Shown here in pieces: positions 1,563 to 22,746 of a stretch of 64,000 nucleotides of DNA (within the stretch, counting starts at the first letter, position 1; every line of letters starts with the position of its first letter). The notes beneath the pieces were generated by a model. That model was not told where the DNA came from. It searched no databases and saw only the letters and a program-made list of their open reading frames with translations. A program made the translations under genes and the position numbers. The DNA is taken from IMG/VR virus record IMGVR_UViG_3300029268_000006, positions 32,001 to 96,000 of that record; one strand, 5' to 3'. Source of the DNA: a virus.

Positions 1563-2558
1563 ATGATATTAGATGAATTTGTTTTAATGTATTGGAATAA
1601 TTATGATAAAAAATATTATGTTGATAAAGGATATGTTTTCACAAAAAGATTTGATAAATTTGAAGTAAATATTAAAGATTTAATGTTGTGTAGTAACTTG
1701 AAGATAAATGTTAAATGCGATATTTGTGGTAAAGAAAAACTATTATCATATCGTAAATATTTAAAAAATATGAATAATGGTGATTATTATTCTTGTTCTC
1801 AGAAATGTTCTCATAATAAATCTAAACAAACTAGTTTAAAAAATTATGGAGTGGAACATTATTTACAATCTGATATTGGTATAAAAAGAATACAAAATAC
1901 ATGTTTGGAAAGATATGGATTTGAAAATGTATCTAAAAACAATGAAATAAAAAAAAGGAAAAAACAAACTTGTTTAAAAAATTATGGAACTGAATATCCA
2001 AGTCAATCGAAAGAAATACAAGAAAGATATAAACAAACTTGTTTAAAAAAATATGGTTGCGAATGGCCTTGGTTAAATATAGAAGTGAAAGAAAAAGTTG
2101 AAAATACTATGTTAAAAAAATATGGAACAAAAAACCCAACACAAAACATAAATATAATGAATAGTATAATTCAAACACAAATAGATAAATATGGTGAAAT
2201 TTGGAAAAATCATGTTCCTAGATATAATCCAAATTCAATAATGTATTTAGATTTAATATCAAAAAAATTAAATATACCAATTCAGCATGCTTTAAATGGT
2301 GGTGAAAAGAAATTCATAAAATATTGGATAGATGGATATATTGATAAATATAATATATGTATTGAATGGGATGAAGAATGTCATAATTTAGAAAATGATA
2401 AAAAAAGAGATGAATATTTAAAAGATAATTTTAATTGTAAAATGATAAGAATTAGACAAAAAACATTTCTTAAAAATATAGATATTGAAATTGAAAAAAT
2501 AGTTGATGAAATAAATGATTATATTTTATCATTAAAATCGTATGAAAAGAAAAAATAA
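1563..2558 (+). CDS. Free-standing putative homing endonuclease (CDxC Zn module, K.T.L..YG repeats, Vsr/DUF559-like C-terminal domain)
   Basis: KCDICGKEK; repeated KQTCLKNYG; C-terminal YWIDGYIDKYNICIEWDEECH. Confidence 0.7.
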   Translation: MILDEFVLMYWNNYDKKYYVDKGYVFTKRFDKFEVNIKDLMLCSNLKINVKCDICGKEKLLSYRKYLKNMNNGDYYSCSQKCSHNKSKQTSLKNYGVEHYLQSDIGIKRIQNTCLERYGFENVSKNNEIKKRKKQTCLKNYGTEYPSQSKEIQERYKQTCLKKYGCEWPWLNIEVKEKVENTMLKKYGTKNPTQNINIMNSIIQTQIDKYGEIWKNHVPRYNPNSIMYLDLISKKLNIPIQHALNGGEKKFIKYWIDGYIDKYNICIEWDEECHNLENDKKRDEYLKDNFNCKMIRIRQKTFLKNIDIEIEKIVDEINDYILSLKSYEKKK

Positions 2559-2590
2559 AAAAGGGATGAAAATAAATTTCATCCCCTTTT
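2557..2590. terminator. Bidirectional intrinsic terminator between convergent genes
   Basis: A-tract, GGGATGAAA, loop, TTTCATCCC, T-tract. Confidence 0.8.
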
Positions 2591-2644
2591 GTTCATTTTT
2601 TTCATCTGTTCATTGATAATGAACAGTAGATTAAAATGAACAGT

Positions 2645-4252
2645 TTAGATTTCAACTGCTTCAATCTTGTGAATCAAAGCCTGACGATCTTGTTCCAACA
2701 TTTTCATTAAATCGAAAACTTTATCTGAAAATCCAGCCAAAGCGTAAACTTTGTTTTCTGGGAATTGTAAAGTTCCGTAACCTTTAAGGTCAATAGAATA
2801 GATATGAGACTGACATTTATACTTTTTACAGTATTCTTTGAAAGTTGTTGTTGGTGCGTGATATCCAACCCAACCTTGTTCATCAGATAAAATAATTATT
2901 CTATCGTAAGCTTTATTGGCTTTTTGAAAGATACTATGGAAATTAGTACCAGCACAAGCGAACTTGTAAATGTTTGTAATAGTCATCAAACTATCAGATG
3001 GGTTATAGTTTTTGTATTCTGCATGATCATCAAATCTCATCAAATCACAACCATTACGTTTTGCGATAGCGGCTGCGAATTGTGCACCAGCTTCAGCACA
3101 ACTAATTGTACTTTTTGCTACTTTATTTGATGTCATAGAACCAGATGTATCTAAAACAACCAATGTTTCACCATCAAATTTCGGAATATTATTAAGTGAA
3201 ATTTCAGTAGCTTCGTTGATGGCAGTTAGAACTTTTCTGTATTTAGAATCCGAAGTACCAAGACTTTGTAATTCTTTGTAAGCTACAAGAAATCTGAATG
3301 GTAAAACCAATGATTTCTTAATTAACTTTTCATCAGTTAAAAGTTCACAAGCGACATCAATCATTTCCGGTGCTTGTTCAACAATGTTTCTTAGGTTACG
3401 AAGTAAAGCGAAGTAACCGATTTTACGTTCACTAAGAAGCTTTGTCCAAGCGTCTTTTTTAAGGTCTTGTTTTTCATCTTCATTGTTAGCTATTTGACCA
3501 GCTTTTGACAATTCAGATTCCCAAGTGTCTTTACTACGAAGTAAATCAATTACAAGTGCTTCAAGAGCGTGAATTTTGATAGTTCCACCTTCTTGTGATT
3601 TAACCCAATTAAGTTTCTTTTCAATTTCTTTCTTATCTTCAGCTTTCTTTTTCAAAGATAATTTCTTGTTAAGTATGTCAATGTATTCTTGACGATTAAC
3701 AGTTACCAAAAATTTATCACCCTGTGTTGGTACTGGGTGTACCAAGTTGGCAATATCAACTAATTTGAAGTCTTTACCTTCACCTCTCCATTTTCCAAGT
3801 TGGTATGCATCGAATCTTGAAATAGCTTCAGCGAAGCCTTTTTTCATCGAATTGGTAATTTTGTTGTCTTTCTTTTTCATGTAGTAAGCCAAGATTTCCA
3901 TCATATCATCCGGTCTACGGACAATTTTGTTATAGAAATTTTTTGCCCAAGGTAAGTTGGACAAATATTTAGCCAATTCAGCAGCTGTAATATGTGATAT
4001 GGATCTCATACCAAATTCATTACGGGCATAAAGTGCAGATTTAGCTACAAAATCCGGTTGTGTCTTACCAATAAGATCAATCAATCTGTTATTGGTTTGT
4101 TCTTCAGTTTCGTAAAAAGAATTCTGTACAAAGGATGTTAACAAAATAGAAACTAATTCTAATTTATTTGATTCTTTGTAGGCTTCACCACCTGCTAAGT
4201 TAACAGTTTTTTCTGCTTTGTAAGCAACTTTTTTTTCATTGAATTTTGACAT
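2645..4252 (-). CDS. rsr: Ro60/TROVE-domain RNA-binding protein with C-terminal vWA domain
   Basis: NLAGGEAY; LYARNEFGMRS; FDAYQLGKW; DIANLVHP; TWESELS; YFALLRNLRN; vWA MIDAS DTSGSM; IILSDEQ. Confidence 0.95.
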   Translation of the reverse strand: MSKFNEKKVAYKAEKTVNLAGGEAYKESNKLELVSILLTSFVQNSFYETEEQTNNRLIDLIGKTQPDFVAKSALYARNEFGMRSISHITAAELAKYLSNLPWAKNFYNKIVRRPDDMMEILAYYMKKKDNKITNSMKKGFAEAISRFDAYQLGKWRGEGKDFKLVDIANLVHPVPTQGDKFLVTVNRQEYIDILNKKLSLKKKAEDKKEIEKKLNWVKSQEGGTIKIHALEALVIDLLRSKDTWESELSKAGQIANNEDEKQDLKKDAWTKLLSERKIGYFALLRNLRNIVEQAPEMIDVACELLTDEKLIKKSLVLPFRFLVAYKELQSLGTSDSKYRKVLTAINEATEISLNNIPKFDGETLVVLDTSGSMTSNKVAKSTISCAEAGAQFAAAIAKRNGCDLMRFDDHAEYKNYNPSDSLMTITNIYKFACAGTNFHSIFQKANKAYDRIIILSDEQGWVGYHAPTTTFKEYCKKYKCQSHIYSIDLKGYGTLQFPENKVYALAGFSDKVFDLMKMLEQDRQALIHKIEAVEI

Positions 4253-4298
4253 AATAATCCTTTCTTTTTTATTTTTTGTTTGTTTGTAATTTAAAGTT

Positions 4299-4342
4299 AA
4301 AAAAAAAAGGGACTATCGAAATAAATTTCAGTAGCCCCTTTT
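4299..4342 (-). terminator. Intrinsic terminator between the Y-RNA cluster and rsr
   Basis: Minus strand GGGGCTACTGAAAT-TT-ATTTCGATAGTCCC followed by a run of about 10 T. A second perfect hairpin, GACATTCA-TTTC-TGAATGTC, lies at 4346-4365. Confidence 0.75.
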
Positions 4343-4375
4343 GGTGACATTCATTTCTGAATGTCTTAATCTATA

Positions 4376-4611
4376 GATGAAGAAAACGATAAGTGAGATG
4401 TGAAATTTAGGTTTTCACTAAAATGAAAGATTTATCATCTTTCATATTCAACCCCGATTTTGGGTTAATTGGAACCTTGACTTTTTGGATGTCAAATCCT
4501 CGGTTTTAGGTAGAACCGAACCACCTGTTATCACCTTATTGGTGATAACGTTTCTGATGCCCGAAGGCTTCTTCCATAATTGTCGAAGTAACACTCAATC
4601 TTACTATCATC
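4376..4611 (-). ncRNA. Large Y-RNA-like ncRNA (about 236 nt) with seven internal hairpins
   Basis: The 5' end GATGATAGTAAGATTGAGTG pairs with the 3' end CATCTCACTTATCGTTTTCTTCATC, and TACTTCG follows the 5' strand. Hairpins at 4400-4418, 4423-4445, 4450-4466, 4477-4495, 4500-4519, 4527-4549 and 4559-4568 (cUUCGg). Confidence 0.7.
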
Positions 4612-4625
4612 AGTAAATATTATAA

Positions 4626-4685
4626 GGAGTAAATCTAAAATAACTTTTTTTCATTTCCTACGAAGTAAGTTATTTTATCACTACC
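4626..4685 (-). ncRNA. Minimal Y-RNA-like ncRNA (60 nt)
   Basis: GGTAGTGA-TAAAATAACTT pairs with AAGTTATTTTA-GAT-TTACTCC (11-bp perfect upper helix); TACTTCG lies at the stem-loop junction. Confidence 0.7.
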
Positions 4686-4756
4686 TTTTTTAAAAATCAT
4701 TAAAATTAAGAACGTTTGTTTTATTTATATTTCAAAAAAACATAAAAGTTTAAAAA

Positions 4757-4865
4757 ATTGTAAAGATATTTTTTTAAGAGTTTTGATAAAAAGCGACTTT
4801 TTGGTGCTTTCTATTGGAGTCGAACCAATTAGAACCGAAGTATCTCTTAAAATTGCTATTACAAC
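4757..4865 (-). ncRNA. yrlA: YrlA-like tRNA-mimic Y RNA (about 109 nt)
   Basis: Closing helices GTTGTAA/TTACAAT and TTTTAAGAG/CTCTTAAAA; TACTTCG; perfect T-arm ATTGG-TTCGACT-CCAAT (4813-4829); loop-closed acceptor-like stem AGAAAGC/GCTTTTT; adjacent to a Ro60 gene. Confidence 0.8.
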
Positions 4866-4955
4866 ATTTATTTTATATATTTGTCAAAAAAAGTCTATTT
4901 TTTCCATTTTTGATAAATATACATCTTTTTTATTAAGAAAAAAATAAAAAGTTTA

Positions 4956-7382
4956 TTAAATATTATATTTTTTTGGCCAAAATTGTTTTTTTTGTGAATT
5001 TGGCCAAAATAATGGATTTTTATTTTCATCATCATTTTTTCTAAATGGGTCAGGTTCTCTCCAAGGATTTCGTTTAAATATTTCGTTTGAATCATCTTCT
5101 CTCCAAGGATTATTTGGTTTAATAGAATTTATTTGTGACATCACATCAACTTTATTTATGAATTGTTTTCTAGCTAATCTGAATGATTTGTAGTTTATTG
5201 TATTTTCAAGTGGTGCAGTTTCTAAGAAATTTTTAACAATTTCTTTTTCTATATCTGTTGCATTAAAGTCAATATAAGTGTCAATTATATTTTTCCAATC
5301 AATATGACTATAAATAGTTGCCAAGTTTATAATTGACATCACACAGTCATCAGTACCACTTTGAGATTTATATGTCACTTCACCATTTGCCAATTCTTTT
5401 TTGGAGAATGAACTTAATTCTATTATGGTTCCACTGTGATGTAATACCATCGCGTCTTTTTTGATACAATCTTGAAAATCTTTTATCATTAGTTTCTTGC
5501 CTTTTTCTCCACTTTTCACAAGGAAACCAACAGTTAGGTAAGTATCAGTTTCATTTTGTTTGTAACGAACAAATACCGAATCACCATAATTGTTGATATC
5601 ATTAAATACATGTTTCATATTATCTAGAAGTCTATCACCCAGATTTTTATTTTTTTCAAGAACTATTTTTACTTTTTCAGAATCGAATAATTCAAATCCT
5701 ATTAAATATAATATATGTGATATTTCATTTGCGTTATAAATATTATTTTGAAAAACACCAATTTGTTCCAATTTAAATAAATCATATTTGCTTTCATACA
5801 TTAGTCTTTTTCTATTTATAATATCTTTATCTTTCATCATTAATCTAAAAATATTTATCACAGTGTAATTTTGTGCAAGTCCTTCACCCATGTCAATTCC
5901 TATAAATATATTATAATTTTTTACTTGTCTAATATCAAATAGATCCGGTCTATTTTTTATCCATTTTAAATCTGTATAAGGAAATTTTAATTTATTTTCA
6001 AATTGTGGTATTTCTTTATATTCAAATGGTGTTTCATTATTAGTTAAACTTTCAAATATAATACTATCAAATAATAAATTTTGATCTGTTATAAATTGAA
6101 GTCCGTATTCTTGTTTGAATTTATCTTCACCACCTATAAGATTTGTTTCTTCTTCTTCCCAATTAGAAATATATGCAATTTCAGTAAAAGGAATTTCACT
6201 TTCAAATTCCATATTGTCATCTCTTGTTTCTAAATTTGTTGCAATTCTTAATGAACGGATACTGGAAATATCAGATTGAAGTGATGGGGTTATTTCATCA
6301 TCTTCGTAAAATTTAATATGATGTATAGCTATACCATCAAGTACCTTATCATAAAGTTTATAACCCAATTCATTTCTCAAATAATTCAAAACATAACCTT
6401 CAGTTAATCCGTGTTTTTTGAGTTTGTCGTCAATGAATTTTATTTTAGTATCCCTCCTACCTTTTATTTGATACCAATAAACTTTAAGTGCTTTATATGG
6501 GTTTTTATGTGGATCACCTTCTGGTAATTCGGCATCTCTTAATAATTCAAAGAATAAATTTCTACCGTCCGGGGTTGATGTAATAATAATTTTTGAATTT
6601 GTAATTGATGATACAGTTGGTACAACGGATGAATAATAAGCTCTAATTATATTATCTGGAATTTTAGCAAACTCATCGAGATATAGTAAATCTATTGTAA
6701 AACCAATGGCCGGTTCTTTGGATCTATTTTGTGTTTGTATTCTACTACCATTTTCAAAAGATAGTGATCTTTCGTTCCAGTTGTTTATACCGGCCTTTAA
6801 GTAGAATGGTAATAATTTATATATGTCTTTTATTTTTCTTATAATTTCTTTAACAGTATTAGATACGTTAGCAACAACCATAACCCCTTTATCTTTATTA
6901 AATAAAACAGTCCACAACATTACAATTGCAGCACTAACTGTATTTAAACTTAAAATATCATTTGTATAATAACTATGTTCATTGGATTGAATTGATAAAT
7001 CGAACATAGAAACTTTATAGTTTTGTTTAATAATAGATTTTATTTTTGATGGACCCCTTTTGGTTAAAACTATATCATCGTGTGTTAAATCTTTAACAAA
7101 TTTAATTATATGATTTTCACAAAAAACACCATGAACATCCGCACAATTTAATTTAATACCATTTTCCAATTTTAGTGTATAAAATGTATATGGTTGTGTT
7201 AAATTAATTTCTTCAATTGGAACAAAACCATAATCTGTTTCGACTAATAAATTTTCTAATGGTAAAAAATTTAATATTTTTTTTGTTTCATCATTTTCAT
7301 CTAAATCTATGTTTCTATATTCATAATTTTCTAATTTTTCAATTAAAAAATATATAATATTTCTTAATATTTTCTTAAACAT
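4956..7382 (-). CDS. terL: Terminase large subunit, C-terminal fragment fused to a long C-intein (IntC aa 1-147)
   Basis: Hint motifs LNCADVH and MFDLSI...YYTNDILSLN|TVSAA (junction 6942/6941). T4 gp17-like motifs follow: LLYLDEFAKI, IIITSTPDG, nuclease GIDMGEG and GTDDCVM. Confidence 0.92.
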   Translation of the reverse strand: MFKKILRNIIYFLIEKLENYEYRNIDLDENDETKKILNFLPLENLLVETDYGFVPIEEINLTQPYTFYTLKLENGIKLNCADVHGVFCENHIIKFVKDLTHDDIVLTKRGPSKIKSIIKQNYKVSMFDLSIQSNEHSYYTNDILSLNTVSAAIVMLWTVLFNKDKGVMVVANVSNTVKEIIRKIKDIYKLLPFYLKAGINNWNERSLSFENGSRIQTQNRSKEPAIGFTIDLLYLDEFAKIPDNIIRAYYSSVVPTVSSITNSKIIITSTPDGRNLFFELLRDAELPEGDPHKNPYKALKVYWYQIKGRRDTKIKFIDDKLKKHGLTEGYVLNYLRNELGYKLYDKVLDGIAIHHIKFYEDDEITPSLQSDISSIRSLRIATNLETRDDNMEFESEIPFTEIAYISNWEEEETNLIGGEDKFKQEYGLQFITDQNLLFDSIIFESLTNNETPFEYKEIPQFENKLKFPYTDLKWIKNRPDLFDIRQVKNYNIFIGIDMGEGLAQNYTVINIFRLMMKDKDIINRKRLMYESKYDLFKLEQIGVFQNNIYNANEISHILYLIGFELFDSEKVKIVLEKNKNLGDRLLDNMKHVFNDINNYGDSVFVRYKQNETDTYLTVGFLVKSGEKGKKLMIKDFQDCIKKDAMVLHHSGTIIELSSFSKKELANGEVTYKSQSGTDDCVMSIINLATIYSHIDWKNIIDTYIDFNATDIEKEIVKNFLETAPLENTINYKSFRLARKQFINKVDVMSQINSIKPNNPWREDDSNEIFKRNPWREPDPFRKNDDENKNPLFWPNSQKKQFWPKKYNI

Positions 7383-8520
7383 TTTTATTTTTTATTAATT
7401 TTAAAATAATAGATTTTATATATTTATTATTATTTTTCCATTCTTTTTCCCATACATGTATTAAATTGATATTTTTATTTTTACAATTATTTGTTTTATC
7501 ATTATGATAATTTTCATTTTTATAGATATTACTATGCCAATAATCACCGTTATATTCAAATGCTAAATTTAAATCTGGTAAATAAATGTCTAATTCTTTA
7601 CCATTTAATATTTTTCTATCATTTTTAATTATTACCCCTTTATAATTTTCTTTTATGAATTTAAATAATTTTCTTTCACCGTCTGATGTTAAAGAATGTT
7701 CTGGATAACATATTGTACATGTTGTTATGTTATGTGACAACCTATTATGAAATAAATTAATATTTATTTCATAATTATGTCCTTCTTCACAACAACAGAA
7801 ATATTTTTTATTTTCGTAATCTATTTTTTTAATAAATAAATATTTAGATAACATTTTTTTATTATAATATTTTTGTGTTTTTTCTTTATGTTCTGGTAAT
7901 TGTGATACATTTTCAATATTATATTTTGTTTTACATGTTTTTTTAATTTTTATAATGTTATTGTAATTTTCATTATCATATTTTTTGTTTTTTGTATTTT
8001 TCGCTTTTTCAACAAAAAATGAATTTTGTGCTGGTCTATCACAATTGTATTTTTCATTATTTGTTTTTATAGATTTTTGTAAAATTTCTTTATTTTGTTG
8101 TGGATAGTCACAATCATATTTTTCATTATTTGTTAATTTAATTTTATTTTTAATTTCTTCATTTTGAAAAACATTTTCAAATCCATAAATTTCCAAATTT
8201 GTTTTTTTACATTTATTTCTATTATTATAAGTTTTATTATTATATTTTTTTTGACATGTTAATTTGTTTTTAATGGATGAACATTTGTGACAAGTATATA
8301 AATTATATTTATTAAAATTATTATTATAACTTTGATAAGATATAATTTTTTCACATCCACAAATATCACAAATTCCTGTTATTTTAACATGTGATTTTAA
8401 TGAGACGTGTTCTATTTTTATTAAAATTTCATCATTTAAATTACAAACATAACCAAAATTTCTAAATTTTTTAATTGTTTTGTCTGCAATTTTGATGTTT
8501 ACTTCTTTTTCTTTTATCAT
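7375..8520 (-). CDS. Putative homing endonuclease (KY-repeats plus Vsr/DUF559-like domain) nested in the split terL
   Basis: GICDICGCEK; K.T..EKY repeats; ELDIYLPDLNLAFEYNGDYWH. Confidence 0.75.
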   Translation of the reverse strand: MIKEKEVNIKIADKTIKKFRNFGYVCNLNDEILIKIEHVSLKSHVKITGICDICGCEKIISYQSYNNNFNKYNLYTCHKCSSIKNKLTCQKKYNNKTYNNRNKCKKTNLEIYGFENVFQNEEIKNKIKLTNNEKYDCDYPQQNKEILQKSIKTNNEKYNCDRPAQNSFFVEKAKNTKNKKYDNENYNNIIKIKKTCKTKYNIENVSQLPEHKEKTQKYYNKKMLSKYLFIKKIDYENKKYFCCCEEGHNYEININLFHNRLSHNITTCTICYPEHSLTSDGERKLFKFIKENYKGVIIKNDRKILNGKELDIYLPDLNLAFEYNGDYWHSNIYKNENYHNDKTNNCKNKNINLIHVWEKEWKNNNKYIKSIILKLIKNKNV

Positions 8521-21564: not shown

Positions 21565-22746
21565 ATGGATAGAAAAAACGTATTCGACTCAACTTTGAAA
21601 TATTTTAATGGAGATACTTTAGCAGCTGATGTTTGGGTGAATAAATATTGTTTAAAAAATGTTGAAAATGGTGAAATAGTATATTATGAAAATACACCCG
21701 ATGATATGCATCGAAGAATATCAGATGAATTATATAGAATTGAAAACAAATATAAAAATCCTCTTGAAAAAGAAAAAATATTTGATTTACTTAAAAATTT
21801 TAAATATATTATACCACAGGGATCTCCAATGTCTGGTATAGGTAATAATTTTCAAATAGTGAGTTTAAGTAATTGTTTTGTCATTGGACATGAATATGAT
21901 TCATATGGTTCCATTATCATGTGTGATGAAGAACAGATTCAATTGATGAAAAGAAGGGGTGGTGTAGGACACGATTTATCACATATCAGACCAACAGGAA
22001 CCGTAGTTCAAAATTCCGCGTTGACATCAACTGGTATTGTTCCGTTTATGGAAAGATATTCAAATTCAACAAAAGAAGTGGCACAGGATGGTAGAAGAGG
22101 AGCTTTAATGCTTACAATTTCAGTCAAACATCCGGACGCTGAAAATTTTATTGATGCAAAACTAGAGCAAGGAAAAGTGACAGGTTCAAATATTTCAATA
22201 AAAATTGATGATGAATTTATGAATTGTGTTTTAAATGATACACCATATATTCAAAAATTTCCAATAAATTCAGACAATCCAAAGGTTACTAAAAGTATCG
22301 ATGCTAAAAAATTATGGAAAAAAATAATTTACAATGCATGGAAATCAGCAGAACCGGGGGTTTTATTTTGGGATACTGTTATTAGAGAATCTGTTCCAGA
22401 TTGTTATAAAGAAGATGGTTTCACTACAATCAGTACTAATCCTTGTTTATCTGGTGATTCTCTTATTACAACAACAAAGGGTGAAATATCAATTAAAGAA
22501 ATTTTTAATAATTTCAAAAATGAAAAATATCAAGTTTTAACATATAATGAAAAAAATAAAAATTTAGAATATAATAATGTATCTGATGCTATTTTAACAA
22601 AAAGAAATGCCAATATAATAGAAATTGAATTAGTTGATGGAACTACATTAAGATTAACACCAGATCATAAAGTTTATACGAAAAATAGAAAATGGATAGA
22701 AGCATCAAAATTAACAAATGATGATATATTAATAAAAATAGATTAA
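21565..22746 (+). CDS. nrdJ: Class II (B12-dependent) ribonucleotide reductase, N-terminal fragment plus N-intein (100 aa)
   Basis: PQGSPM, SLSNCFV, RRGGVG, AEPG, STNP|CLSGDS (Cys1 at 22444); block B LTPDHKV. Confidence 0.93.
   Translation: MDRKNVFDSTLKYFNGDTLAADVWVNKYCLKNVENGEIVYYENTPDDMHRRISDELYRIENKYKNPLEKEKIFDLLKNFKYIIPQGSPMSGIGNNFQIVSLSNCFVIGHEYDSYGSIIMCDEEQIQLMKRRGGVGHDLSHIRPTGTVVQNSALTSTGIVPFMERYSNSTKEVAQDGRRGALMLTISVKHPDAENFIDAKLEQGKVTGSNISIKIDDEFMNCVLNDTPYIQKFPINSDNPKVTKSIDAKKLWKKIIYNAWKSAEPGVLFWDTVIRESVPDCYKEDGFTTISTNPCLSGDSLITTTKGEISIKEIFNNFKNEKYQVLTYNEKNKNLEYNNVSDAILTKRNANIIEIELVDGTTLRLTPDHKVYTKNRKWIEASKLTNDDILIKID

What the first reader, a model, noticed from the sequence alone, without database searches (positions are those of the whole stretch)
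4376..4865. Ro60 locus with an array of three Y-RNA-like RNAs sharing a stem+UACUUCG signature but different cargo
Seen: upstream of rsr and on the same strand are three end-paired RNAs (4757-4865, 4626-4685, 4376-4611). Each has a terminal helix, an internal bulge/loop, an upper helix and then TACTTCG at the top of the 5' strand (plus-strand CGAAGTA at 4836, 4661, 4584). The loops carry a tRNA-like module, almost nothing, or seven hairpins. Known: bacterial and phage Ro60 genes neighbour Y RNAs such as YrlA, which tether Ro60 to effectors (PNPase in Deinococcus). Inference: one Ro60 with a modular set of RNA adaptors or decoys, possibly against host anti-phage RNases or tRNA-cleaving defences.
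Basis: partly seen in the sequence, partly recalled or inferred. Interest (0 to 1): 0.8.

Follow-up and report, generated by a model that had tools for sequence, protein, structure and literature searches.

The report
Three Y RNAs beside phage Ro60
A fragment of a very large freshwater phage carries, just upstream of its Ro60 gene, three small non-coding RNAs that share one conserved "handle" but display different second halves; they are divergent members of the known Y RNA partners of Ro60, and one has an unusually large payload of unknown function.

Summary
On the minus strand, between the large terminase gene and a Ro60 (TROVE+vWA) gene, lie three end-paired RNAs: 4758-4864, 4622-4689 and about 4374-4613. 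Each has a lower helix, a bulged U, two base pairs, an internal loop, a roughly 9-bp upper helix and then UACUUCG.

This handle recurs upstream of Ro60, on the same strand, in 122 of 133 related loci from phages, metagenomes, Bacteroidota MAGs and Clostridium isolates. Its helices covary strongly. A model built from relatives finds RNA 1 and RNA 2 and nothing else in the 132-kb record.

RNA 1 carries a tRNA T-arm plus a 7-bp acceptor-like stem. RNA 2 carries almost nothing. RNA 3 carries about 190 nt of hairpins, a payload shared only with one close relative, and it is the only part of the locus assembled in two metatranscriptomes.

Rfam YrlA does not match the window, and matches relatives only below threshold.

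These are Y RNAs, a known kind: bacterial YrlA/YrlB and phage phiLo Yrl1/2. The handle variant and the long payload appear undescribed. Earlier notes of this scan report the same UACUUC handle in Ro60-linked arrays in about 30 other genomes.

The parts
2645..4252 (-). Ro60 / Rsr-like gene (535 aa; TROVE + Ro60-type vWA domain)
   Evidence: Pfam TROVE 2.8e-20, vWA_Ro60 8.7e-11. PDB phmmer: best match phiLo Ro60 9KOP/9L5Y at 2.7e-28; also human and Xenopus Ro60 and D. radiodurans Rsr.
4299..4342 (-). Intrinsic-terminator-like hairpin plus U10, between RNA 3 and the Ro60 start codon. A smaller hairpin lies at 4346-4365.
   Evidence: Fold of 4290-4378: -27.4 kcal/mol, z -5.95. L002 has an equivalent hairpin plus U-run.
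4374..4613 (-). RNA 3: long Y-like RNA. It has the handle (GAUGA-U-AG-UAA-upper helix-UUACUUCG ... CACUUAUC-GUUUU-CU-UCAUC) and about 190 nt of multi-hairpin cargo.
   Evidence: MFE -68.6 kcal/mol, z -5.2, with a closing stem. Duplex of the two arms. The closing stem and hairpins are kept in L002, with 4 compensatory pairs. RNA-library contigs are laid at 4335-4586 and 4393-4640.
4584..4590 (-). UACUUCG junction motif of RNA 3
4622..4689 (-). RNA 2: short Y-like RNA (YrlB-like), a handle plus a 21-nt loop
   Evidence: CM R1 54.2 bits, E 1.4e-8, full-length model match. Fold z -3.2.
4661..4667 (-). UACUUCG junction motif of RNA 2
4758..4864 (-). RNA 1: Y-like RNA whose cargo is a tRNA minihelix mimic (T-arm plus 7-bp acceptor-like stem, no D-arm)
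   Evidence: CM R1 41.5 bits, E 4e-6, with a 46-nt insert. In the 5-sequence alignment A5 the T-arm is invariant and the acceptor-like stem covaries at 4 pairs.
4813..4829 (-). T-arm mimic AUUGG-UUCGACU-CCAAU. The loop is UUCRACU across relatives.
   Evidence: Sequence. Conserved in L002, L008, L010 and L066.
4788..4812 (-). 7-bp acceptor-like stem AGAAAGC/GCUUUUU. Its capping loop begins with ACCA (4802-4805) in this window only.
   Evidence: Relatives cap the stem with GNRA-type extensions and lack ACCA.
4836..4842 (-). UACUUCG junction motif of RNA 1
4870..4897 (-). Sigma-70-like promoter match ending about 6 nt before the 5' end of RNA 1. It overlaps a TATAAAAT box that is also present in L002.
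   Evidence: Promoter scan, 9/12 match. Sequence comparison with L002. This is a weak consensus match only.
4722..4729 (-). TATAAATA box (T4 late-promoter consensus) inside a block upstream of RNA 2 that is nearly identical in L002
   Evidence: 41 in the window against 24 expected.. Promoter function is inferred.

Best explanation
The three RNAs are Y RNAs, the non-coding partners of the phage's Ro60 protein.

Each is built on the same docking handle. The handle is a terminal helix, a bulged U, two base pairs (AG/CU), an asymmetric internal loop (family consensus YGA on the 5' side; UGA, CAA and UAA here), an upper helix of about 9 bp, and an invariant UACUUC at the junction with the cargo. 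Ro60 is inferred to bind this handle. The two invariant elements lie about one helical turn apart, so one protein could contact both.

The variable cargo is inferred to recruit or occupy different partners:
- RNA 1 presents a tRNA acceptor/T-arm minihelix. Candidate partners are RNase P, TruB and CCA-adding-type enzymes.
- RNA 2 is a minimal YrlB-like hairpin.
- RNA 3 presents about 190 nt of hairpins of unknown specificity.

By analogy with Deinococcus, Salmonella and phage phiLo, the likeliest job is to tether Ro60 to, or gate, a host exoribonuclease such as PNPase during infection.

The RNAs appear to be made from promoters downstream of the terminase gene. The transcript is mostly stopped at a terminator just before Ro60, so RNA is made in excess and Ro60 mRNA arises by read-through.

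Shown here: sequence, structure, covariation, linkage to Ro60 and presence in RNA libraries. Inferred: Ro60 binding, the partners, the processing and the biological role.
For: - Ro60 identity.
- Handle conservation: WTACTTC occurs 278 times on the sense strand against 8 on the antisense strand in the 700 nt upstream of Ro60 (3.0 against 0.09 per kb), in 122 of 133 loci (raw lists).
- Covariation in 25 short RNAs: 95.7% of cells paired against 66.6% shuffled (0 of 500 shuffles). The covariation score is 0.764 against 0.179. Slid controls give 36-52%. Twelve of 15 pairs have compensatory changes.
- CM R1 gives 115 hits in 87 sources, all on the Ro60 strand beside Ro60. In the window's own record it gives only the two expected hits.
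- Link to the known family: Rfam YrlA (RF02553) matches handle-bearing RNAs with full T/AS/D cargo in L003 and L004 (E 8e-6 and 7e-8) and in Clostridium and Bacteroidota loci, all below the gathering score.
- The stem-bulge-stem with a CGAA-like loop matches the description of phiLo Yrl1/2, which bind phiLo Ro60 (PMC12135203). It also matches the GNCGAA/GGUCCGA motif of PMC4201824.
- RNA 1: conserved T-arm and covarying 7-bp stem.
- Independent-RNA status: the same handle RNAs sit inside tRNA arrays of megaphage LR745206.1, 100-150 kb from its Ro60, abutting tRNAs within 0-4 nt.
- Expression hint: in two metatranscriptomes of one study, the only contigs laid along the 3-kb stretch cover 4335-4640 (RNA 3 and its flanks), apart from two variant contigs that share only its 33-nt 5' arm. 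DNA runs of the same samples cover nearly all of it.
Against: - There is no direct evidence that Ro60 binds these RNAs.
- Rfam YrlA and Y_RNA do not match the window even at E<=10.
- The window's three copies have degenerate versions of the CGAA-like loop (UGA, CAA, UAA).
- RNA 3 is not detected by the model, and its handle has a bulge in the upper helix.
- The RNA evidence is from assembled contigs of one study. It cannot show ends, strand or level.
- Pfam detected no effector gene (PNPase, RtcB, ligase) among the neighbours scanned. Most of those proteins matched no family, so this is weak negative evidence.
- Which conserved element contacts Ro60 is unresolved. Infernal aligns the UACUU segment to the AUGCU linker of YrlA in one relative and to the CGAA segment in another.
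Confidence: 0.8

Rival explanations
1. The structures are cis-acting leader elements of the Ro60 mRNA, for example Ro60 autoregulatory binding sites or attenuators, rather than free-standing trans-acting RNAs.
For: They lie in the 703-nt leader region directly upstream of Ro60 on the same strand. A terminator sits only about 45 nt before the start codon, which would suit attenuation. TACTTCG also occurs four times inside this Ro60 ORF.
Against: The same handle RNAs occur in tRNA arrays more than 100 kb from Ro60, flanked by tRNAs within 0-4 nt. They also occur downstream of Ro60 in two phages of about 415 kb. Bacterial Y RNAs upstream of rsr are processed from such precursors into stable Ro60-bound RNAs (PMC4201824). 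The ORF copies of the motif are not conserved: there are none in L002, and the mean is 0.56 per ORF across 87 loci. The two roles are not mutually exclusive.
Confidence: 0.07
2. They are tRNA-derived decoys or relics that act independently of Ro60, for example baits for host anticodon nucleases or tRNA-modifying enzymes. Their position next to Ro60 would be a matter of shared regulation only.
For: RNA 1 and many relatives carry tRNA parts: 34 of 43 mid-size members have a T-loop and 20 have a D-arm. Members sit in tRNA arrays.
Against: RNA 2, and 77 short members in general, have no tRNA-like part at all yet keep the handle. RNA 3's cargo shows no conserved tRNA-like arm, and neither ARAGORN nor Rfam finds one. 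The conserved part is the handle, not the cargo. The handle is tied to Ro60 genes in 122 of 133 loci.
Confidence: 0.08
3. These are chance hairpins and a chance repeated heptamer in an AT-rich intergenic region.
For: The region is AT-rich, and simple hairpins are common in such sequence.
Against: The model hits have E 1e-8 and 4e-6, from a model trained on other loci. Covariation exceeds every one of 500 shuffles. The motif is 35-fold enriched on the sense strand upstream of Ro60.
Confidence: 0.01

Closest known systems
Bacterial YrlA / YrlB Y RNAs with Rsr (Salmonella Typhimurium, Mycobacterium smegmatis, mycobacteriophages; Chen et al. 2014, PMC4201824; Rfam RF02553; Wang et al. 2018, 10.1101/312249)
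   Same: They are encoded next to Ro60 on the same strand, with at least two per locus. The 5' and 3' ends pair into a stem that holds the presumed Ro60 site. One RNA has a permuted tRNA-like module (V, T, acceptor-like stem, D) and one is a plain hairpin (YrlB). In M. smegmatis both are processed from one precursor upstream of rsr, and the 7-bp acceptor-like stem is cut by RNase P.
   Different: The Rfam model finds nothing in the window, and finds relatives only at 31-48 bits against a gathering score of 69. The handle has an invariant UACUUC junction motif and a bulged-U/AG/YGA loop instead of GNCGAAN0-1G. RNA 1 lacks the D-arm. A third RNA carries about 190 nt of cargo with no conserved tRNA-like arm, far larger than described Y RNAs.
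Thermus phage phiLo Ro60 with Yrl1 and Yrl2 (NAR 2025, PMC12135203; PDB 9KOP, 9L5Y)
   Same: A phage-encoded Ro60, the best solved homologue of this protein (E 2.7e-28). It has tandem Y-like RNAs directly upstream and stem-bulge-stem handles with a CGAA-type loop. Binding to Ro60 and ternary complexes with host PNPase were shown in vitro.
   Different: The R1 model does not match the phiLo upstream region. phiLo has two short RNAs and no tRNA-like or long cargo. Nothing has been tested biochemically for the present phage.
Deinococcus radiodurans Rsr with Yrn1/Yrn2 and PNPase (RYPER complex)
   Same: Several Y RNAs lie upstream of rsr. Yrn2 is co-transcribed with a tRNA and Yrn1, as in the tRNA-array members seen in megaphage LR745206.1. 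A T-arm is present without a full D-arm, as in RNA 1. This system is the functional model: the RNA tethers Ro60 to an exoribonuclease.
   Different: The Deinococcus handle keeps both strands of the metazoan-type helix. No PNPase link is shown here.
Metazoan Y RNAs (Rfam RF00019)
   Same: The overall layout is shared: a lower stem, a bulged pyrimidine, two base pairs, an internal loop, an upper stem and a variable loop. The family consensus GGUAGCGA resembles GGUCCGA, the segment contacted by Xenopus Ro60 (as quoted in PMC4201824).
   Different: The Rfam Y_RNA model gives no match at E<=10. The resemblance is a lead, not a test.

Membership tests
Y RNA in the broad sense (Ro60-associated ncRNA: bacterial/phage Yrl, Yrn) | Encoded within a few kb of a Ro60/TROVE gene, on the same strand | tested here: met
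   The RNAs end 120-610 nt upstream of the Ro60 start, on the same strand. The same holds for 115 of 115 model hits in 87 sources.
Y RNA in the broad sense (Ro60-associated ncRNA: bacterial/phage Yrl, Yrn) | The 5' and 3' ends pair into a long stem interrupted by a bulge or internal loop (stem-bulge-stem) | tested here: met
   Folds. Covariation of both helices: 95.7% paired, no shuffle as high.
Y RNA in the broad sense (Ro60-associated ncRNA: bacterial/phage Yrl, Yrn) | Conserved 5'-strand motif of the Ro60 site (GGUCCGA / GNCGAAN0-1G / CGAA in the bulge) | tested here: inconclusive
   The family consensus in the loop is YGA(W), preceded by G-U-A-G. The window's copies read UGAU, CAAU and UAAG. 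Only the A is invariant, so a strict GNCGAA is not present.
Y RNA in the broad sense (Ro60-associated ncRNA: bacterial/phage Yrl, Yrn) | Bound by Ro60 | not testable with these tools
   This needs EMSA or co-immunoprecipitation.
Y RNA in the broad sense (Ro60-associated ncRNA: bacterial/phage Yrl, Yrn) | Accumulates as a discrete stable RNA | tested here: inconclusive
   RNA-library contigs cover RNA 3 with its flanks in two samples of one study. Contigs cannot show ends or strand. RNA 1 and most of RNA 2 have no RNA cover, which proves nothing.
YrlA (Rfam RF02553) | Match to the Rfam covariance model at its gathering score (69 bits) | tested here: not met
   There is no hit in the window at the gathering score or at E<=10. 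Relatives score 31-48 bits.
YrlA (Rfam RF02553) | tRNA-like module with a T-arm, an acceptor-like stem-loop and a D-arm | tested here: not met
   RNA 1 has the T-arm and a 7-bp acceptor-like stem. Only 7 nt stand where the D-arm should be. RNAs 2 and 3 have no such module.
tRNA | Cloverleaf recognised by ARAGORN or Rfam tRNA | tested here: not met
   ARAGORN finds no tRNA in the 64-kb window. Rfam finds none.

The most novel reading that the evidence does not exclude
The bulged-U/YGA loop plus UACUUC handle defines a large Y RNA lineage that no Rfam model captures. It is shared by Bacteroidota, Clostridia, Chloroflexota and their phages, and cargo is freely swapped on it. On this reading, the long multi-hairpin cargoes (about 190 nt here, up to about 250 nt in relatives) are a new class of Ro60-tethered structured RNA with their own protein or RNA target. 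They would be abundantly expressed during infection and, in megaphages, matured by the tRNA-processing machinery because they sit inside tRNA arrays.
Probability: 0.3. Interest if true: 0.7.

Novelty: new variant of a known kind. Interest (0 to 1): 0.5.

Why it matters
Ro60 and Y RNAs are conserved from bacteria to humans, yet what the variable half of a Y RNA recruits is known in only a few cases. This locus and its more than 130 relatives offer a natural series: one constant, covariation-supported handle carrying very different payloads (none, a tRNA minihelix, whole tRNA-like bodies, or 200-nt hairpin bundles).

The series makes three things directly testable:
- which handle nucleotides Ro60 reads;
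- what each payload binds;
- why large phages invest in such RNAs.

It also shows that the current Rfam YrlA model misses a large share of Y RNAs. This matters for annotating phage and Bacteroidota/Clostridia genomes.

Tried and rejected
- **Rfam.** No family matched at gathering score on the whole window. At E<=10 on 4200-5000 there was only noise.
- **ARAGORN.** No tRNA or tmRNA was found.
- **blastn of the intergenic region** against 50,697 phage records gave no match.
- **Long-cargo homology.** An nhmmer profile of the L001-type long Y-like RNAs found only the handle in the window, L002, L008 and L010. It found no cargo similarity, so RNA 3's cargo is a different type.
- **Heuristic scaffold finder.** It over-extended several RNAs, for example RNA 3 to 474 nt, and was not used for boundaries.
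- **Long-range pairing in RNA 3.** RNAalifold proposed ACUUCG (the motif) paired with CGGGGU. I rejected it as unsupported. Both sides are invariant, and the pairing competes with a UUCCRAU/AUCGGGG hairpin. That hairpin becomes perfect in L002 and in the strain variants A4470G and C4462U, given as minus-strand (RNA) bases.
- **Four TACTTCG copies inside the Ro60 ORF as autoregulatory sites.** They are not conserved: none in L002, and a mean of 0.56 TACTTC per ORF on the sense strand against 0.82 on the antisense strand across 87 loci.
- **ACCA after the acceptor-like stem of RNA 1 as an encoded CCA end.** It is absent from L002, L008, L010 and L066 and may be chance.
- **Pfam scan of 20 neighbouring ORFs for RNA-repair or nuclease partners.** None was detected. 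The families found were terminase, DUF7487, ROS_MUCR, AstE_AspA-type, pentapeptide repeat, zinc-finger-type domains, gp32 and ribonucleotide reductase, and most ORFs matched no family.
- **No RNA contigs over Ro60, terminase, RNA 1 or most of RNA 2.** This is not evidence of silence.
- **Literature.** The supplement of Chen 2014 and the 2020 Annual Review were not held. A search for UACUUC together with Y RNA gave nothing relevant.

Full report
**Locus.** All features lie on the minus strand. A large terminase gene (4956-7382, Terminase_6N) is followed by a 703-nt non-coding stretch, then a 535-aa protein with TROVE and Ro60-type vWA domains (2645-4252). Its best solved relative is the Ro60 of Thermus phage phiLo (9KOP/9L5Y, E 2.7e-28). 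Human and Xenopus Ro60 and Deinococcus Rsr follow.

The window belongs to a 132-kb IMG/VR virus record that CheckV rates 19% complete, so it is a fragment of a very large phage. The closest database Ro60 is in a 635-kb uncultured phage (50% identity). DNA runs that hold the stretch are from lake and other freshwater samples.

TACTTCG lies at 4836-4842, 4661-4667 and 4584-4590 on the minus strand. The window holds 11 copies against 2.3 expected. The three stretches fold better than shuffled controls, with z -3.4, -3.2 and -5.2.

The shared layout is a terminal helix, a bulged U, two base pairs (AG/CU), an internal loop, an upper helix of about 9 bp and then UACUUCG.

**Relatives.** A protein-guided scan of viral contigs, metagenomes and genomes gave 146 Ro60 loci, and one more came from the phage records.
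- Of the 133 with at least 400 nt upstream, 122 have one to five copies of WTACTTC within 700 nt upstream on the Ro60 strand.
- There are 278 sense copies against 8 antisense copies, or 3.0 against 0.09 per kb. Inside the ORFs the density is 0.22 per kb.
- The 22 nt before the motif are also patterned...G-U-A-G-Y-G-A-(about 8 nt)-G-R-G-WUACUUC.
- The loci include phages of 414-635 kb, a crAss-like gut phage, Bacteroidota, Chloroflexota and other MAGs, and isolates such as Clostridium intestinale, C. tetanomorphum and Oceanirhabdus.

The handle is therefore not specific to phages.

**Structure test.** Twenty-five short members from other loci align without register shifts (A3).
- RNAalifold predicts 15 pairs in two helices, and 12 have compensatory changes.
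- 95.7% of cells are paired against 66.6% after shuffling (0 of 500 shuffles as high). The covariation score is 0.764 against 0.179. Sliding the partner by 1-3 columns drops pairing to 36-52%.
- Across the 55 short RNAs of alignment A2, the invariant positions are the bulged U, the A of the 5' loop and UACUUC.
- The upper helix is 8-9 bp in almost all members. The two invariant elements are thus about one helical turn apart. From this I infer that one protein reads both.

**Model search.** A covariance model from A3 (R1) finds RNA 2 (54.2 bits, E 1e-8) and RNA 1 (41.5 bits, with a 46-nt insert). It finds nothing else in the window or in the whole 132-kb record. Over 87 sources (534 kb, both strands) it gives 115 hits, all on the Ro60 strand beside Ro60.

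RNA 3 is too long for the model. Its arms still show the handle: GAUGA-U-AG-UAA-GA(U)UGAGUG-UUACUUCG ... CACUUAUC-GUUUU-CU-UCAUC. The closing helices are kept in L002.

**Cargoes.**
- **RNA 1.** It carries AUUGG-UUCGACU-CCAAU. The loop is UUCRACU in five relatives, a T-loop pattern. A 7-bp stem, AGAAAGC/GCUUUUU, follows directly and covaries at four pairs. This is the order V-T-AS of YrlA (PMC4201824), but only 7 nt stand where the D-arm should be. It is therefore a tRNA acceptor/T minihelix mimic. In this window alone the capping loop starts with ACCA, which may be chance.
- **RNA 2.** It has only a 21-nt loop and resembles YrlB-type hairpins.
- **RNA 3.** It has about 190 nt folding into 6-8 hairpins. 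Its only cargo homologue is in L002/L009 (Ro60 79% identical). Five hairpins are kept there, with four compensatory pairs, and a sixth is replaced by an unrelated perfect hairpin. L008 (Ro60 81% identical) has only the RNA 1 and RNA 2 types.
- **Other long members.** About 30 loci have long members of 205-316 nt. They share the handle and a conserved 3' sub-domain of their own but have no sequence similarity to RNA 3's cargo.
- **Family-wide classes.** Sizes fall into three classes: 66-95 nt (77 RNAs), 100-166 nt (43 RNAs; 34 with a T-loop and 20 with a D-arm) and 205 nt or more (30 RNAs).

**Relation to known families.** Rfam has a YrlA model (RF02553). It finds nothing in the window. It does match handle-bearing RNAs with full T/AS/D cargo in L003, L004, Gordonia phage Rabbitrun, Clostridium and Bacteroidota loci, at 31-48 bits against a gathering score of 69.

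Three points from the literature bear on this:
- Chen et al. 2014 describe Y RNAs near Ro60 in more than 250 bacteria and 22 phages. Each characterised species has at least two, one tRNA-like and one a plain hairpin. The 5' motif is GNCGAAN0-1G, which resembles the GGUCCGA contacted by Xenopus Ro60. In M. smegmatis the RNAs are processed from a precursor upstream of rsr, and RNase P cuts the 7-bp acceptor-like stem.
- A 2025 paper shows that phiLo Ro60 binds two upstream stem-bulge-stem RNAs with a CGAA loop and forms complexes with host PNPase.
- The YGA(W) loop after G-U-A-G in the present handle fits that description loosely. The UACUUC junction motif has no counterpart that I could find in these papers. 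Infernal aligns it to the AUGCU linker of YrlA in one relative and to the CGAA segment in another, so the homology is unresolved.

**Independent RNAs and expression.** In LR745206.1 the model finds three further members 100-150 kb from Ro60. Each is wedged between tRNA genes with gaps of 0-4 nt. They would be released by tRNA processing, and the model's ends coincide with the mature ends. Two phages of about 415 kb have a second member just downstream of Ro60.

I laid two metatranscriptome assemblies of one freshwater study on 2500-5500.
- Two contigs lie along the stretch, at 4335-4586 and 4393-4640, that is RNA 3 with its flanks.
- DNA assemblies of the same samples cover nearly the whole stretch.
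- The only other RNA contigs laid, one in each library, share just the 33-nt 5' arm (4584-4616) and then diverge. This points to expressed variants with other cargo.
- This supports expression of RNA 3 but is not decisive, because contigs cannot give ends, strand or level.

**Transcription (inferred).** A sigma-70-like match ends about 6 nt before RNA 1. A TATAAATA box lies in a block upstream of RNA 2 that is nearly identical in L002. RNA 2 and RNA 3 are 8-10 nt apart.

A strong terminator hairpin plus U10 follows RNA 3, only about 45 nt before the Ro60 start codon. I read this as an RNA-rich transcription unit, with Ro60 mRNA arising by read-through.

**Function.** The best-supported reading is the standard one for Y RNAs: the handle docks Ro60 and the cargo engages other factors. 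An exoribonuclease such as host PNPase is the precedent. No step of this was tested here.

Pfam detected no partner gene among the neighbours scanned, though most of those proteins matched no family.

**Earlier notes of this scan.** They report the same UACUUC handle in Ro60-linked arrays of up to ten RNAs in about 30 other genomes. The three-member array here is a modest example. Its distinctive points are the long cargo with no conserved tRNA-like arm, with RNA-library support, and the D-arm-less minihelix.

Noticed in passing
window 3251-3543 (minus strand, inside the Ro60 ORF): TACTTCG occurs four more times inside the Ro60 coding sequence (3251, 3399, 3409, 3537), in different reading frames. 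Its closest relative L008 has five TACTTC, while L002 has none. Across 87 ORFs there is no general enrichment.
   Followed up: partly
LR745206.1 342959-343028, 369033-369172, 388895-389000 (L090 1460-1529, L091 1534-1673, L092 1496-1601): In a 635-kb uncultured phage, three handle-bearing Y-like RNAs sit inside tRNA gene arrays 100-150 kb from the Ro60 gene, abutting the flanking tRNAs within 0-4 nt. This implies release by RNase P and 3' processing of tRNA.
   Followed up: partly
L005 4696-4771, L006 4706-4781, L007 4669-4744: Two complete phages of 414-418 kb and a related 47-kb viral contig each have one handle RNA upstream of Ro60 and a second one about 45 nt downstream of it.
   Followed up: no
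L095 997-1128 and 1159-1190 (phage csAssE-Sib, OR575929.1): A human-gut crAss-like phage has a 132-nt handle RNA (45 bits) upstream of tRNA-Tyr, tRNA-Lys and its Ro60. A second GUUACUUCGAAAA segment overlaps the 5' end of the annotated tRNA-Tyr, which may really be a handle-mounted tRNA mimic.
   Followed up: no
L127, L132, L139, L145, L147, L150, L154 (Clostridium spp., Oceanirhabdus): Cultured Clostridia carry one to three handle RNAs (GGGCAGUG...GUG-UUACUUC) plus a sub-threshold YrlA hit upstream of chromosomal Ro60. They could be tractable hosts for testing the handle.
   Followed up: partly
window 4802-4805 (minus strand): In RNA 1 the 3' strand of the 7-bp acceptor-like stem is followed by ACCA, like a discriminator base plus an encoded CCA end. 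Four relatives lack it.
   Followed up: yes
window 4956-7382 and 21565-22746: The large terminase ORF (808 aa) shows a weak intein-splicing match next to Terminase_6N. A ribonucleotide reductase large-subunit ORF ends in an intein-splicing domain (2e-10). DUF7487 ORFs (1563-2558 and 7375-8520) lie close to these genes.
   Followed up: no
window 4690-4757 and L002 2540-2603: The spacer between RNA 1 and RNA 2 (TTTTTTGAAATATAAATAAAA..CGTTCTTAATTTTAATG) is almost identical in the window and L002, although the flanking RNAs differ. It may be a promoter or a processing signal.
   Followed up: no
L012 2262-2393, L041 26-164, L061 1647-1803: Some relatives mount the tRNA-like body in the natural order (D-arm, anticodon-like arm, T-arm), with the handle in place of the acceptor stem. 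This is the opposite of the permuted YrlA order, so both orientations occur on the same handle.
   Followed up: no
L094 about 1296-1310 (Thermus phage phiLo, upstream of Ro60): The region that holds the published Yrl RNAs contains CUUUACUUCGG, a copy of the WUACUUCG motif, although the R1 model does not match there.
   Followed up: no
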